DNA from: Escherichia coli
GTDB lineage: Bacteria > Pseudomonadota > Gammaproteobacteria > Enterobacterales > Enterobacteriaceae
Length of the DNA stretch: 64,000 nucleotides
Assembly (NCBI RefSeq): GCF_030013205.1
Contig: NZ_CP122648.1
Reading direction: 5' to 3' (one strand)
Shown: one piece after another, positions 42,301 to 48,300 of the stretch
How the letters are laid out: the number at the start of each line of letters is the position of its first letter
Position numbering within the stretch: position 1 is the stretch's first letter
Made by a program: the position numbers

Positions 42301-45300
42301 CGCGCTTACCTGCATCACTTTATCTTCCGGCATTCCGGCCTCTTCCAGCACCCGACGGGCCGAAAGCGCGCGATCGCCCGAAAGGTTCCAGTTGTTGTAG
42401 ATATTGTTTTTGTAGGCCATCGCATCGGTATGCCCGGTAATAATAATTTTGTTATCGAGCGAGTCGAACACTGGCGCGAGCTCCACCAGCAAAGTTTTAA
42501 AGAACGGCATAATCTGCGCGCTGCCGCGTTCAAACATATTGCGGTTCTGGTCATCTTTAATCAGCACGCGTAATCCCTGCGGGACAATCTCCATCTCCAG
42601 ATTCGCTTCCATATGTGCATCACGGGCAATGGTGTTGATACTGGTTGCCAACTCGCCAAGCTCGGTGGCGGATTTCTTCTTCAGCAGCGCCGGTTTCTCA
42701 TTCACATCACGCGCTTTTTTCTCCGTCTCTTCCGGCACCGCCACGGTGGCAGGTTTTGGCGGATGAGACGGGCTGATTTTATTTAACGGCGACAGCCCAC
42801 CACCGTTAAAAATCGACTGCCCGTGCAGCGCGGCGATAATGCTTTCACGCTCGGATTTACTGACGCTGTTGACAATCAACTTTATTGTCGTCACCAAAGG
42901 GGCCGAGCGTATTTCCGAGGTTTCTGCCCGCTTTACCCTGGACGCGATGCCTGGCAAACAGATGGCGATTGACGCCGATCTTAACGCCGGGTTGATCAAC
43001 CAGGCGCAGGCGCAAACCCGGCGTAAAGATGTTGCCAGCGAGGCCGATTTCTACGGCGCGATGGACGGGGCATCGAAGTTTGTGCGCGGGGATGCCATCG
43101 CCGGGATGATGATTCTGGCGATCAACCTGATCGGCGGCGTCTGTATCGGGATCTTCAAATACAACCTGAGCGCCGATGCCGCCTTCCAGCAATATGTGCT
43201 GATGACCATCGGCGACGGCCTGGTGGCGCAGATCCCTTCCCTGCTGCTCTCCACCGCGGCGGCGATTATCGTCACCCGCGTCAGCGACAACGGCGATATC
43301 GCCCATGACGTGCGCCACCAGCTGCTGGCAAGCCCGTCGGTGCTCTACACCGCTACCGGAATTATGTTTGTGCTGGCGGTGGTGCCGGGGATGCCGCATC
43401 TGCCGTTTTTGCTGTTCAGCGCCCTGCTTGGTTTTACCGGCTGGCGGATGAGCAAACGCCCGCAGGCGGCGGAGGCGGAAGAGAAAAGCCTCGAAACACT
43501 GACCCGCACTATCACTGAAACCCGCGAGCAACAGGTCAGTTGGGAAACCATTCCGCTGATCGAGCCTATCAGCTTAAGCCTTGGCTACAAGCTGGTGGCA
43601 CTGGTGGATAAAGCGCAGGGGAACCCGCTCACCCAGCGGATTCGCGGCGTGCGGCAGGTGATATCCGACGGTAACGGCGTACTGCTGCCGGAGATCCGTA
43701 TTCGGGAAAACTTCCGTCTCAAGCCCAGCCAGTACGCCATTTTCATCAACGGCATAAAGGCTGATGAAGCGGATATTCCGGTGGATAAACTGATGGCGCT
43801 GCCCTCCAGCGAAACCTACGGCGAGATTGACGGCGTGCTGGGGAACGACCCGGCGTACGGGATGCCCGTGACCTGGATTCAGCCTGCGCAGAAAGCGAAG
43901 GCGCTGAATATGGGGTATCAGGTGATCGACAGCGCCAGCGTGATTGCTACCCATGTGAACAAGATTGTGCGCAGCTATATTCCTGATTTGTTTAACTATG
44001 ATGATATTACTCAGCTGCATAACCGTTTATCGTCGATGGCTCCACGGCTGGCGGAAGATTTGAGCGCGGCGCTGAATTACAGCCAGCTGCTGAAAGTGTA
44101 CCGCGCGCTGCTGACCGAAGGCGTTTCCCTGCGCGATATCGTCACTATCGCCACCGTGCTGGTTGCCAGTAGCGCGGTGACCAAAGATCATATTCTGCTG
44201 GCGGCAGATGTGCGCCTGGCGCTGCGGCGCAGCATTACCCATCCGTTCGTTCGCAAGCAGGAGCTGACGGTGTATACGCTGAATAATGAGCTGGAAAATC
44301 TGCTGACCAACGTGGTGAATCAGGCGCAACAGGCCGGCAAAGTGATGCTCGATAGCGTGCCGGTGGACCCGAATATGCTCAACCAGTTCCAGAGCACGAT
44401 GCCGCAGGTGAAGGAGCAGATGAAAGCGGCGGGGAAAGACCCTGTGCTGCTGGTGCCGCCGCAGTTGCGTCCTTTGCTGGCGCGTTATGCAAGGTTGTTT
44501 GCGCCGGGGCTGCATGTGCTGTCGTATAACGAAGTGCCGGACGAGCTGGAGTTGAAGATTATGGGGGCGTTGAGTTGATTGAGGAATCTTTTCCATGCTT
44601 TGCAGCACCTGACACCATTAATTGACGTCACACTGCAAAGAGACTACGATGACACCATACAATGATGTCATGGATTGATAGTATGATTAAGGTCAGCGCG
44701 CTAGGCTCTCGTCATAGAAAAACATTCGACGATGTAATGACGGAGCCGCCAAAATCTGGAATTAAATGGGATGATGTTGTTGCACTCATTAAAGCTGTGG
44801 GTGGAACAATAAAAAATAACAACGGCTCCAGACGAAAATTTCAGATTGGAACGACCAAATTCAGCACACATGAGCCACATCCAAAGAATGTGATGGATAA
44901 AGGCGCAGTAGCAGGTCTTAAGGAGTGGTTTGTTAACTGTGTAGGGGTAGATTATGAATAAAGCATCGAACATTATCACAATTAAAGGTCAACCAGCCGC
45001 AGTGACATTTGAAGCCGATATCAACGCATTTCGCGGCAAGTTCCTCAATGTAAACGGTTATTGTGACTTTGTAGCCACAAGTATTGAGGCATTATATCGT
45101 GAAGGCGAAAGCGCGCTGGATGAGTGGATGGCGGATTGTGAAGAGGACGGTATTGCCCCTTTTCGTGAAGAAGAAGAGCAAAAACGCCTGACGCTTCGTG
45201 TTCCTCATCACATTGATTCGCGGCTGACCATCGTCGCCAGACAACATTCCATTTCAAAAAACCAGCTCATTGTTGATGTCTTAGAACGTGAGTTTTCAGC

Positions 45301-48300
45301 CCAGATGTAAACAGGTCGGATGCCGCGTGGCATCCGACCTTTTGCCAGTTCGTCAATATTACCCATTTACAAAATCGTCTCTTCCGTCAAAATCCGGCGC
45401 GCGCCTAAAAAATGGTCCTGCCAGAAAGGTTCAGCTAACCGACTTACCCGTATGGTTTCCCCGGTGCGCGGCGACTCAATAAACTGTCCATCGCCCAGAT
45501 ACACGCCCATATGGTCGGCAATCTCGCGGCTGTGGATATGAAAAAACAGCAAATCTCCCCGGCGCAGGTCGTTATTCGCCACAATGGTTGCCCGGCGATA
45601 GTGATACATCTCATTAGCCGTGCGTGGGAGCTTCGCCTCGAGGATCTTGTTGTAGGCATAAAAAACCAACCCGCTACAGTCGAAGCCTTGATCGGGCCGC
45701 GTGCCGCCCCAGACGTAAGGCTTGCCAAGCTGCTGCTCCAGGCGGTGAATCGCCACTTCGGTGATGTTGTGTAGATGGTCGCTGCTTAAGAAATGGTTGT
45801 TCTCCGCCAGCGCCTGCCAGCGTCTGTCACTTGCCTTGAGCGGCGCAGGAAACCATTCTGGATGCTGTTTTATCTGTTCGCGGTTGTGCTGGCGCAGCGC
45901 CTTTCTGCTTTCGGCATTGCCTTCCACAATATAGCTGGCCTGTTTTTTCAGATGGGTTTGGTACTGTTTTAATAAACGCGCACGGTTTTGCATCCGCTGG
46001 CGGGCGGCGTAGCTGAAAGAGATATGTGATGTGGTGGCGCTGGCGAGTAAAGGGAGCAAAACGCATAACGAAAACACGCCTGGATGCAGAAATCTGCCGA
46101 GCAAGAACGAAGACATGAAGGACATAAACCGGCTGAATGAAGGTGAGAATTTTAAAAGACCAGAGGAGTAAACGGGATTATTAATTGCTTATTTGCATAT
46201 TACTATTGAGGTTTCATAATCTTAGGAAATAAATGATACATGCGCTTTTCGGACTATTGAAAACTGCCCCTGTGCTAAATTTGTAAACCCTGCGCCGACA
46301 GGCTTGCGTAAAACTCTTTTGGTGATAATGTGAGCCTTCCCAATCCAGACTATTCCGATTTGGGATCCATTTTGCCGTCCTGGCGTGTGTAACCGTTTTA
46401 TCAAGGAATAAGCAGTATGCGTAAAATCGCATTAATTCTTGCGATGTTGTTGATCCCGTGCGTTTCGTTTGCCGGTTTGCTGGGCAGCAGTAGCTCGACC
46501 ACGCCAGTGAGCAAAGAGTATAAGCAGCAGTTGATGGGATCCCCTGTCTACATCCAGATCTTCAAGGAAGAACGTACACTCGATCTCTACGTCAAAATGG
46601 GCGAGCAATATCAACTGCTCGACAGCTATAAAATCTGTAAATATTCCGGCGGCTTAGGGCCAAAACAGCGTCAGGGCGATTTCAAAAGCCCGGAAGGGTT
46701 TTATAGCGTCCAGCGTAATCAGTTAAAACCAGACAGCCGTTACTACAAAGCGATTAATATTGGATTCCCCAATGCCTATGACCGTGCGCATGGTTATGAA
46801 GGGAAATATCTGATGATCCACGGCGATTGTGTTTCCATCGGCTGCTACGCGATGACCAATCAGGGTATTGATGAGATCTTCCAGTTCGTTACTGGTGCGC
46901 TGGTTTTTGGTCAGCCGAGCGTGCAAGTGAGTATTTACCCGTTCCGCATGACCGACGCCAATATGAAGCGCCATAAATATTCCAACTTTAAGGACTTCTG
47001 GGAGCAACTGAAACCGGGCTACGACTACTTTGAGCAAACCCGTAAGCCACCGACCGTTTCTGTGGTCAATGGCCGTTACGTGGTCAGCAAGCCGTTAAGC
47101 CACGAAGTTGTGCAACCACAGCTGGCATCAAACTACACGCTCCCCGAGGCAAAATAAGCGCCATTCGCCTGGCATAATCTTTTGCCAGGTTTCATTGCCC
47201 GTCAGCGGCTGTGTCGCAATCACCGTGACCACATCATTCGGTGTGGTCTGCGAGCTGAAGTCGATTTCCACATCCTGATCCAGCAACGTTGCCACGCCAA
47301 ACGGCGCGCGGCGGGTGATCCAGTGTAAATTAGTCGAGCAATACGCCATTACATAGCGCCCGTCAGAAAGCAGCATGTTGAAAACGCCCTTCTGCCGCAG
47401 TTCATCCGCCAGTGAGGCGATATATTTAAACACTGCCGCCATGTTGCCCGGTGTGCGCGGGTAACGCTGCGTTAATTTATGCAGGAGCCAGCAGAAGGCT
47501 TTTTCGCTGTCGGTTTCACCGACCGGGCGGAAGTTGCCGGTTTCCAGTGATTTGTATCCCGTCAGTTGTCCGTTATGGGCATAAGTCCAGTTACGCCCCC
47601 ATAACTCGCGGGTAAACGGGTGAGTATTTTCCAGCGCCACCTCGCCCCGATTCGCCTGGCGAATATGAGCCACCACCGAACAGGATTTTATCGGGTAGTC
47701 CTGGACAAGTTTGGCGATGGGGGAATTAAAGCTGGGTTGCGGATCTTTAAATGTGCGACAGCCTTTACCTTCGTAAAAGGTAATGCCCCAGCCATCTTTA
47801 TGTGGCCCGGTTCCACCACCACGCTGTACAAGTCCGGTGAAACTAAAGCAGATATCGGTAGGGACGTTGGCGCTCATCCCGAGCAATTCGCACATAGGTA
47901 ACCTCCACAACAGCGGGAGCGCATGGCCCCCGGCGAAGATTGATTTAAGTATTTTCAGGTCGGATGCGGCGTAAACGCATTATTCGGCCTACGCCAGACT
48001 TACTTAACCATCTCTTTTTCAATTAACTGGATCAGGATATGGATCACTTTAATGTGGATCTCCTGAATGCGGTCGGCATAACCAAAGTGCGGTACGCGAA
48101 TTTCGATATCCGCTGTGCCAGCCATTTTACCGCCGTCTTTACCGGTCAGGGTGATCACTTTCATCCCCTTCTCACGCGCCGCCGCGATCGCTTTGATCAC
48201 GTTTGCAGAGTTACCGGAGGTGGAGATCCCCAGTAGTACATCGCCTTCGCGACCTACCGCTTCAACGTAACGGGAGAAAATATCGTTGAAACCAAAATCG

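What the first reader, a model, noticed from the sequence alone, without database searches (positions are those of the whole stretch)
44662..45310. HicA/HicB-like toxin-antitoxin pair where K-12 carries rayT
Two overlapping small ORFs have a HicA-like core (GS-RR...HEPHPK) and a HicB-like fold with a C-terminal RHH. In K-12 I recall the REP-associated transposase rayT (yafM) between lfhA and yafL, so this looks like a strain-specific TA module replacing it. A terminator hairpin follows.
Basis: partly seen in the sequence, partly recalled or inferred. Interest (0 to 1): 0.45.

Follow-up and report, generated by a model that had tools for sequence, protein, structure and literature searches.

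The report
Known hicAB toxin-antitoxin cassette replacing rayT
This is a two-gene HicA/HicB toxin-antitoxin module that sits between lfhA and yafL in about a quarter of E. coli strains, where K-12 carries the REP-associated transposase rayT; the swap was published in 2012, so the finding is correct but ordinary.

Summary
Two overlapping plus-strand genes, hicA (44683-44961; true start 44683, not 44662) and hicB (44954-45310), pass Pfam's HicA_toxin and HicB thresholds. Their predicted folds best match solved HicA toxins and RHH-type HicB antitoxins.

The 794-bp cassette (44574-45367) exactly replaces K-12's 902-bp REP-rayT-REP block, running from the lfhA stop to the yafL stop. 1369 of 5426 complete E. 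coli genomes carry hicAB here and about 110 carry hicB alone. I saw no sign of hicA without hicB.

Ton-Hoang et al. (NAR 2012, PMC3333891) already reported hicA/hicB replacing tnpAREP and its BIMEs between yafL and fhiA, mostly in clade B1. RefSeq annotates both genes. The finding is therefore already known.

Added here:
- A promoter bracketed by two conserved paired-box operators (TGACGTCA-N5-TGACGTCA type).
- Strong purifying selection on hicA: 10 of 10 differences are synonymous.
- This HicA belongs to a large "long-form" subfamily. The canonical catalytic His is Arg in 121 of 144 representatives and never His. A different His (H63) is near-invariant. I found no experimental work on this subfamily.

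The window also lacks dinJ-yafQ, an independent polymorphism.

The parts
44574..45367 (.). Variable cassette (794 bp) that replaces K-12's 902-bp REP-rayT-REP block. It is bounded by the last codon/stop of the lfhA pseudogene and the stop codon of yafL.
   Evidence: blastn against K-12 locus L002: homology 41400-44573 and 45368-46044 only. Sequences read.
44610..44630 (+). Operator-like site 1: paired boxes TGACACCA-ttaat-TGACGTCA. Box 2 contains the -35 hexamer.
   Evidence: 21-nt direct repeat. The motif occurs only twice in 64 kb against 0 expected. The same two-site layout (TGACGTCA-N5-TGACGTCA at about -75 and -33 from the ATG) lies upstream of homologous hicAB modules in unrelated contexts L005, L006 and L008.
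44622..44650 (+). Sigma-70-like promoter: TTGACG (44622-44627), 17-nt spacer, TACGAT (44645-44650).
   Evidence: Consensus scan, 9 of 12 matches. -35 and -10 elements sit at the equivalent positions in L005, L006 and L008. Function is inferred, not shown.
44650..44670 (+). Operator-like site 2: TGACACCA-tacaa-TGATGTCA, a 10-nt imperfect inverted repeat abutting the -10. In other E. coli alleles box 2 is the perfect TGACGTCA (44666 C).
44683..44961 (+). hicA: 92-aa long-form HicA toxin, identical to RefSeq WP_000598760.1. It has an extra N-terminal helix plus an alpha-beta-beta-beta-alpha core. Signature residues are G48-S49-R50 and H63-x-P65-H66-P67.
   Evidence: Pfam PF07927 at 30.4 bits. RefSeq annotation. 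AlphaFold2 pLDDT 96.9. Foldseek top hits are HicA 6g26, 1whz and 6hpb. hhalign to canonical HicAs at 95% probability. 10 of 10 synonymous differences between alleles.
44954..45310 (+). hicB: 118-aa antitoxin, identical to WP_001030484.1. The N-terminal domain has a HicB fold (partial RNase H-like) and the C-terminal domain is ribbon-helix-helix. It overlaps hicA by 8 bp.
   Evidence: Pfam PF05534 at 40.5 bits. AlphaFold2 pLDDT 81.6. Foldseek top hits are HicB 6g26_A (prob 1.00), 4p7d, 4p78_A, 2dsy and 6hpb_B, and the C-terminal domain matches Arc/CopG/AtaR. Weak profile match to the AmrZ RHH.
45313..45344 (.). GC-rich perfect hairpin (12-bp stem, GCGT loop) followed by TTTT, lying between the convergent hicB and yafL. 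It is a probable terminator, and its sequence is REP-like.
   Evidence: RNA fold -27.1 kcal/mol, z -5.15. Unique in the window. Local similarity to the K-12 REP is reached by 4 of 2000 shuffles. Not called by the strict terminator scan.

Best explanation
The locus is a self-contained, horizontally acquired type II toxin-antitoxin operon of the HicAB family. [quoted passage not shown] In one part of the E. coli population it occupies the lfhA-yafL intergenic site that holds the REP-rayT-REP 'REPtron' in K-12.

Inferred mechanism:
- A sigma-70 promoter (44622-44650) drives a bicistronic, translationally coupled hicA-hicB transcript, which probably ends at the hairpin at 45313-45344.
- HicB binds HicA through its N-terminal partial RNase-H-like domain and masks the toxin's active face.
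- HicB dimerises through its RHH domain and represses the promoter by binding the two paired-box operators (44610-44630 and 44650-44670) that bracket the -35 and -10.
- Free HicA is expected to act as a ribosome-independent RNase that arrests growth.

Unlike every characterised HicA, this one has arginine (R50) at the catalytic G-x-H position at the start of strand beta2. It has a near-invariant histidine (H63) at the end of beta3, which should be the cross-strand neighbour of residue 50, plus the common P-H-P histidine (H66). The active site is therefore probably rebuilt around R50/H63/H66.

What is shown: gene identities, folds, boundaries, population distribution, conservation of the operator layout, and purifying selection. 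What is inferred: toxicity, RNase chemistry, repression and termination.
For: Identity:
- Pfam hits above gathering thresholds; all 92 diverse subfamily members hit PF07927.
- RefSeq annotates both genes as HicA/HicB.
- The HicA model (pLDDT 96.9) has the alpha-beta-beta-beta-alpha core, and its best structural matches are HicA toxins.
- The HicB model matches solved HicB antitoxins and RHH repressors.
- hhalign to canonical HicAs gives 95% probability.

Replacement of rayT: sharp breakpoints at 44573/45368; published by Ton-Hoang et al. 2012, PMC3333891.

Evidence that the module is functional:
- 10 of 10 nucleotide differences in hicA between E. coli alleles are synonymous (P about 1.5e-6 under neutrality).
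- hicA is found in 1370 genomes. 1369 carry at least 80% of the hicA query and 1369 carry at least 80% of the whole cassette. About 110 genomes keep hicB without hicA.
- A 63%-identical module lies beside ccdAB and parA on a Salmonella IncFII plasmid.
- Close homologs sit as isolated two-gene modules in unrelated contexts.

Regulation: the two-site TGACGTCA-N5-TGACGTCA layout, with -35 and -10 in fixed register, is conserved across those contexts and is unique in the window.

Active-site variant: in 144 representatives position 50 is R in 121 and H in 0; H63 is present in 139, P65 in 139 and H66 in 141.
Against: - No experiment on this protein or any GSR-type HicA was found. Toxicity and RNase activity rest on family membership.
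- The one residue shown to be essential in all studied HicAs (His24/28/36/23) is absent.
- Foldseek E-values are weak (0.18 for HicA, 0.019 for HicB), as is usual for such small domains.
- The HicB model is only moderately confident (pTM 0.52).
- The -10 (TACGAT) and the Shine-Dalgarno (TGGA) are weak.
- The hairpin has only four T and was not called a terminator by the scan.
Confidence: 0.8

Rival explanations
1. The pair is a HicAB relic whose HicA is catalytically dead because the canonical histidine is missing. It would act only as an RNA-binding or regulatory protein, or do nothing, and is retained by drift.
For: R50 replaces the His that is essential in B. pseudomallei, Y. pestis, S. pneumoniae, E. 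coli K-12 and N. gonorrhoeae HicA. The Pfam score is only just above threshold (30.2 against 27). About 110 genomes have lost hicA, and one has a truncated hicA.
Against: Arg50, His63 and His66 are conserved across representatives that are each from a different 50%-identity cluster, which argues for a constrained alternative active site. hicA shows 10 of 10 synonymous changes within E. coli. I saw no sign of hicA without hicB, while hicB persists alone. Relatives sit in plasmid maintenance regions.
Confidence: 0.12
2. The module's main role is anti-phage defence by abortive infection, as proposed generally for HicA toxins, rather than addiction or stress response.
For: Gerdes 2024 (PMC10865869) argues that HicA modules often lie in defence islands. 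The site is a variable hotspot with TA modules: dinJ-yafQ is next door in many strains.
Against: No PADLOC defence model matches either protein. The neighbours are housekeeping or relic genes (lfhA pseudogene, yafL, dpaA), not defence genes. No experimental data exist. This concerns biological role and is compatible with the best explanation's mechanism.
Confidence: 0.15
3. hicAB is the ancestral occupant of the lfhA-yafL site, and the REP-rayT block replaced it in other lineages. This is the reverse of the direction the first reader proposed.
For: The hairpin after hicB is REP-like, which could be read either way. Divergent hicAB alleles (97% identity) and a separate hicB-only allele exist, which implies some age.
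Against: Ton-Hoang et al. mapped rayT across the phylogeny and inferred early acquisition of rayT, with later replacement by hicAB mainly within clade B1. rayT-type loci are the majority in a sample of complete genomes. I did not build a tree here.
Confidence: 0.1

Closest known systems
The same locus in E. coli IAI1 and other B1 strains, described by Ton-Hoang et al., NAR 2012 (PMC3333891)
   Same: The same genes at the same site between yafL and fhiA (lfhA), replacing tnpAREP (rayT) and its BIMEs. IAI1 carries hicA at 99.3% identity. RefSeq proteins WP_000598760.1 and WP_001030484.1 are identical to the window's.
   Different: Nothing essential. That paper only named the genes. It did not analyse the promoter, the operators, the hicB-only alleles or the HicA active site. 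It stated that there was no trace of BIMEs, whereas the hairpin after hicB is weakly REP-like.
Y. pestis HicA3-HicB3 (PDB 4p78, 4p7d) and B. pseudomallei HicAB (PDB 6g26): Class 4 hicAB with RHH-type HicB
   Same: The gene order is hicA then hicB. HicB has an N-terminal partial RNase H fold plus a C-terminal RHH. HicA has a dsRBD-like core. These are the best structural matches, and they autoregulate through palindromic operators.
   Different: No sequence match by phmmer. The window's HicA is about 30 residues longer, with an extra N-terminal helix. It has Arg where those toxins have their catalytic His28/His24.
E. coli K-12 HicAB (yncN/ydcQ, PDB 6hpb)
   Same: The same family and fold (Foldseek: TM 0.64 on 6hpb_A; HicB matches 6hpb_B).
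   Different: K-12's HicB uses a helix-turn-helix domain, not RHH (Class 3). K-12's HicA is 58 aa with catalytic His23. It lies at a different chromosomal locus.
Long-form 'GSR...HxPHP' HicA proteins on plasmids (S. meliloti pSymA, D. radiodurans pMPI, Piscirickettsia salmonis plasmids, Salmonella IncFII pLG24p1)
   Same: Full-length alignment at 30-63% identity. They share the N-terminal RKT...P...W helix, G-S-R and H-x-P-H-P. An RHH-type hicB lies downstream, with the 8-bp hicA-hicB overlap in the Salmonella and Piscirickettsia modules.
   Different: The enterobacterial branch is isolated: only one 50%-identity cluster scores below 1e-30. Its operators are specific to that branch.

Membership tests
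HicA toxin family (Pfam PF07927 / COG1724) | Sequence match to the family profile above the curated threshold | tested here: met
   30.2-30.4 bits against a cutoff of 27. hhalign to four solved HicAs gives 95% probability.
HicA toxin family (Pfam PF07927 / COG1724) | dsRBD-like alpha1-beta1-beta2-beta3-alpha2 fold | tested here: met
   AlphaFold2 pLDDT 96.9: H29-38, E42-45, E50-55, E58-63, H73-87, plus an extra helix at 9-19. Foldseek top hits are 6g26_E/F (prob 0.87-0.91), 1whz, 4c26 and 6hpb_A.
HicA toxin family (Pfam PF07927 / COG1724) | Catalytic histidine two residues after the conserved glycine at the start of beta2 (G-x-H; His24 in Bps, His28 in Yp, His23 in Ec) | tested here: not met
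   The position is Arg50 here. Across 144 subfamily representatives it is R in 121 and H in 0. The alignment is confirmed by hhalign. The glycine (G48) is conserved.
HicA toxin family (Pfam PF07927 / COG1724) | Ribosome-independent RNase activity and growth arrest on expression | not testable with these tools
   No experimental report was found for this protein or its subfamily.
HicB antitoxin family (Pfam PF05534; Gerdes Class 4) | Profile match above threshold, with an N-terminal partial RNase H-like domain | tested here: met
   PF05534 at 40.5 bits against a cutoff of 21. The Foldseek top hits are all HicB: 6g26_A prob 1.00, 4p7d, 4p78_A, 2dsy, 6u0i, 6hpb_B.
HicB antitoxin family (Pfam PF05534; Gerdes Class 4) | C-terminal ribbon-helix-helix DNA-binding domain | tested here: met
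   The model has two helices at 85-97 and 102-117 after the region (residues 77-83, LTLRVPH) aligned to the RHH strand. The C-terminal domain matches Arc (1bdv_B, prob 0.94), CopG (1ea4_B) and AtaR (6gts_C). Profile match to AmrZ at E = 0.028.
Type II toxin-antitoxin module (general) | Two small co-oriented, overlapping genes with palindromic operators at their promoter | tested here: met
   8-bp overlap. Two paired-box sites bracket the -35 and -10, conserved in register in homologous modules.
Type II toxin-antitoxin module (general) | Patchy, mobile distribution, with the toxin not retained without its antitoxin | tested here: met
   Present in 27% of E. coli genomes at one site. Homologs occur on plasmids and in unrelated chromosomal contexts. 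hicA is in 1370 genomes against 1479 for the cassette, and the same number (1369) carry at least 80% of hicA and at least 80% of the whole cassette.
Type II toxin-antitoxin module (general) | Antitoxin neutralises the toxin and represses the operon | not testable with these tools
   Requires kill/rescue, pull-down and EMSA or reporter assays.
REPtron (rayT flanked by REP/BIME), considered for this site | A RayT Y1-transposase gene flanked by REP/BIME sequences | tested here: not met
   There is no homology to the K-12 rayT block between 44574 and 45367. There is only a single REP-like hairpin of uncertain origin.

The most novel reading that the evidence does not exclude
This E. coli HicA belongs to a large, uncharacterised 'long-form' branch of the HicA family: 636 clusters at 50% identity, spread across phyla and plasmids. 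In this branch the catalytic histidine has moved from the start of strand beta2 (now Arg50) to the neighbouring strand beta3 (His63), and a conserved N-terminal helix has been added. The branch would then cleave RNA with a rebuilt active site, and possibly with a different substrate preference from all HicAs studied so far.
Probability: 0.4. Interest if true: 0.4.

Novelty: already known. Interest (0 to 1): 0.2.

Why it matters
The rayT/hicAB swap is a documented E. coli lineage polymorphism, so it adds no new biology. It is useful mainly as a marker: in the 2012 survey it was found mostly in phylogroup B1, and here it is seen in O111, O104:H4, IAI1 and HS.

The modest added value is that a quarter of E. 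coli strains, including major pathogen lineages, carry a well-conserved HicA that lacks the one residue thought essential for HicA activity. This gives a convenient, genetically tractable member for testing how that large subfamily works. The conserved paired-box operator gives a concrete regulatory model to test.

Tried and rejected
- phmmer and profile searches of HicA and HicB against PDB sequences gave no meaningful hit for HicA and only a weak AmrZ RHH hit for HicB. Fold comparison was needed instead.
- NCBIfam gave no significant model, and PADLOC gave none.
- I suspected the characterised S. meliloti HicAB might be the long-form pSymA homolog. It is not: the studied pair is chromosomal SMc04441/SMc04269 and has the canonical His.
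- I tested whether hicAB presence is linked to dinJ-yafQ absence. It is not, because all combinations occur.
- I considered the 44662 ATG as the start and rejected it.
- I considered the hairpin as a REP remnant. The similarity is only modestly above chance (4 of 2000 shuffles), so the question is left open.
- Literature searches by protein accession, for 'atypical HicA', and for the Piscirickettsia, Deinococcus and pSymA homologs found nothing on the subfamily.
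Full report
**1. What is in the sequence**

Between the 3' end of the lfhA (fhiA) pseudogene, which ends at 44578, and the convergent yafL gene (45367-46125, minus strand) lie two overlapping plus-strand ORFs. They run 44662..44961 and 44954..45310. Pfam assigns the first to HicA_toxin (PF07927, 30.2 bits, cutoff 27). It assigns the second to HicB (PF05534, 40.5 bits, cutoff 21). An identical stretch in strain K_EC180 is annotated by RefSeq as 'type II toxin-antitoxin system HicA family toxin' (WP_000598760.1, 92 aa) and 'HicB family antitoxin' (WP_001030484.1, 118 aa).

The toxin gene starts at 44683, not 44662, for four reasons:
- RefSeq uses 44683.
- All homologs begin MIKV....
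- One E. coli allele has TGG>TAG at 44672, inside the putative extension.
- The extension overlaps a conserved operator.

**2. Relation to K-12**

Alignment with a K-12 MG1655 record shows homology up to 44573 and again from 45368. The 794 bp in between replace a 902-bp K-12 segment made of REP/BIME copies, rayT on the minus strand, and a further REP. The breakpoints coincide with the last codon of lfhA and the stop codon of yafL.

In 5426 complete E. coli genomes:
- The cassette is found in 1479, always as a single copy.
- 1369 carry both genes, and about 110 carry only hicB.
- hicA alone matches 1370 genomes. 1369 carry at least 80% of the hicA query, the same number that carry at least 80% of the whole cassette, and one has a truncated hicA. 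I therefore saw no sign of hicA without hicB.
- Carriers include IAI1, HS, O111, O145 and O104:H4 strains.

**3. This is already published**

Ton-Hoang et al. (NAR 2012, PMC3333891) surveyed 110 E. coli/Shigella genomes.
- 74 carried tnpAREP (rayT) between yafL and fhiA.
[quoted passage not shown] IAI1)'.
- They inferred early acquisition of rayT and later replacement.

**4. Protein anatomy: HicB**

The AlphaFold2 model (pLDDT 81.6) has four strands and a long helix, a low-confidence linker, and a C-terminal two-helix unit.

Its best structural matches are HicB antitoxins: B. pseudomallei 6g26_A (probability 1.00), Y. pestis HicB3 (4p7d, 4p78_A), TTHA0281 and E. coli HicB. The C-terminal part matches the Arc, CopG and AtaR ribbon-helix-helix repressors. 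This places the operon in Gerdes' Class 4 (hicAB with an RHH-type HicB).

**5. Protein anatomy: HicA**

The model is very confident (pLDDT 96.9, pTM 0.88). It shows an extra N-terminal helix (residues 9-19) followed by alpha(29-38), beta(42-45), beta(50-55), beta(58-63) and alpha(73-87). The best structural matches are HicA toxins (6g26_E/F at probability 0.87-0.91, 1whz, 4c26, 6hpb_A), though with weak E-values. A profile-profile alignment to four solved HicAs gives 95% probability.

**6. An atypical active site**

All characterised HicAs depend on a histidine two residues after a conserved glycine, at the start of beta2:
- His24 in B. pseudomallei and N. gonorrhoeae
- His28 in Y. pestis HicA3
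- His36 in S. pneumoniae
- His23 in E. coli K-12

In the window's HicA that position is Arg50 (G48-S49-R50). This is not decay.
- A profile search of 1.84 billion representatives found 636 clusters at E<=1e-3 and 78 at E<=1e-10, and nearly all of the best 150 listed align across most of the profile.
- Among 144 of them, position 50 is Arg in 121 and never His.
- G48 (141), S49 (142), H63 (139), P65 (139), H66 (141) and P67 (128) are near-universal.
- All 92 sampled members hit Pfam HicA_toxin.
- Members occur on plasmids of Sinorhizobium (pSymA), Deinococcus, Piscirickettsia, Rhizobium and a Salmonella IncFII plasmid.

H66 corresponds to the common P-H-P histidine. In the gonococcal toxin that residue (His40) lies near the catalytic His but is dispensable. 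H63 aligns to Thr37 of the B. pseudomallei toxin.

In the model's strand registry (beta2 at 50-55, beta3 at 58-63), residue 63 should be the cross-strand partner of residue 50. I infer from this that the catalytic histidine has moved to the neighbouring strand. I could not measure distances because the coordinates are not exposed. I found no paper on this subfamily.

**7. Evidence that the module is alive**

- The most divergent E. coli alleles (97% DNA identity) differ from the window at 10 positions in hicA. All 10 are synonymous, and all encode WP_000598760.1. Given this gene's codon content, the chance of that under neutrality is about 1.5e-6.
- hicB shows 0-3 differences with at most one amino-acid change.
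- Many genomes have hicB only and I saw none with hicA only. This is what a genuinely toxic HicA predicts.
- A 63%-identical module sits next to ccdAB and parA on Salmonella plasmid pLG24p1.
- Other close homologs are isolated two-gene insertions in unrelated chromosomal neighbourhoods, with the same 8-bp overlap.

**8. Regulatory anatomy**

A sigma-70-like promoter (TTGACG at 44622, 17-nt spacer, TACGAT ending at 44650) is bracketed by two 21-nt sites:
- TGACACCA-ttaat-TGACGTCA (44610-44630)
- TGACACCA-tacaa-TGATGTCA (44650-44670)

The motif occurs nowhere else in the 64-kb window, against 0 expected by chance.

Upstream of the homologous modules in the Salmonella plasmid and two metagenomic enterobacterial contigs, the same layout recurs in register. 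There are two TGACGTCA-N5-TGACGTCA sites at about -75 and -33 from the ATG, with the -35 inside the second box of site 1 and the -10 abutting site 2. This footprint across unrelated contexts is good evidence for HicB/HicAB operators and autorepression, as in other RHH HicB systems.

In the window allele, 44666 is T. Other E. coli alleles have C there, which gives a perfect TGACGTCA box.

Downstream, a perfect 12-bp GC-rich hairpin (45313-45340; -27.1 kcal/mol, z -5.15) followed by TTTT lies between the convergent genes. It is a plausible terminator, although the strict scan did not call it.

**9. Side observations**

- The hairpin resembles a shortened REP: CGGATGCcGCGTG..GC..ATCCGaCCT against the K-12 REP. 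Only 4 of 2000 shuffles score as well. It is absent downstream of hicB in other hosts. It may be a REP vestige, which would qualify the published 'no trace of BIMEs'. This is weak evidence.
- The hicB-only allele (for example strain 98192, locus L003) keeps operator site 2 and the -10 but lacks site 1. It has hicA removed in frame.
- The window also lacks dinJ-yafQ between yafL and dpaA: 232 bp at 46045-46276 stand in place of K-12's 838 bp. An evenly spaced sample of the ranked genomes shows every combination of hicAB or rayT with dinJ-yafQ present or absent. About 12 of 15 sampled hicAB rows retain dinJ-yafQ, so the two polymorphisms are independent.

**10. Verdict**

The observation and the interpretation are both confirmed, with a corrected start codon. 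The feature is an annotated and published lineage polymorphism, so its novelty is 'already known' and its interest is low.

The only part that might repay further work is the uncharacterised GSR/HxPHP branch of the HicA family that this E. coli toxin represents.

Noticed in passing
window 46045-46276: The dinJ-yafQ toxin-antitoxin operon, which lies between yafL and dpaA (yafK) in K-12, is absent. 232 bp stand in place of K-12's 838 bp. In an evenly spaced sample of genomes, all combinations with hicAB or rayT occur, so the two polymorphisms are independent. Most sampled hicAB strains keep dinJ-yafQ.
   Followed up: partly
L003 1680-2111 (E. coli strain 98192); equivalent to window 44579-45310: About 110 complete genomes carry an orphan hicB. 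hicA is deleted in frame, so the reading frame runs MMKTRLLISQASN... Operator site 2 and the -10 are retained and site 1 is missing. One further genome (ZH177) has a truncated hicA.
   Followed up: partly
window 45313-45344: The hairpin after hicB resembles a shortened REP element. Its local alignment score against the K-12 REP is reached by only 4 of 2000 shuffles. It is not found after hicB homologs in other hosts. It may be a vestige of the REP/BIME block, or the resemblance may be coincidence.
   Followed up: partly
window 44666: The window allele has T where three other E. coli alleles have C. This degrades the second box of operator site 2 from TGACGTCA to TGATGTCA. It also creates the second of the two upstream ATGs that made the 99-aa ORF look plausible.
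   Followed up: yes
window 42109-44578: lafU and a 5'-truncated lfhA (flhA-like) overlap head to head. This is the K-12-type remnant of the Flag-2 lateral flagellar cluster. The hicAB-carrying strain O111:H- 11128 is annotated with a full-length flhA at this position, so Flag-2 status varies among hicAB strains.
   Followed up: no
window 47961-47992; also about 20421-20508 and 50681-50748: There is a genuine REP copy between yafJ and lpcA (gmhA) that matches the REPs flanking K-12's rayT. Two further REP-like hits lie elsewhere in the window.
   Followed up: no
L005 3001-4566 (Salmonella Muenchen plasmid pLG24p1): A 63%-identical hicAB module with perfect TGACGTCA operator boxes lies beside ccdAB and parA on a small IncFII plasmid. 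It is a plausible type of donor for the chromosomal E. coli cassette.
   Followed up: partly
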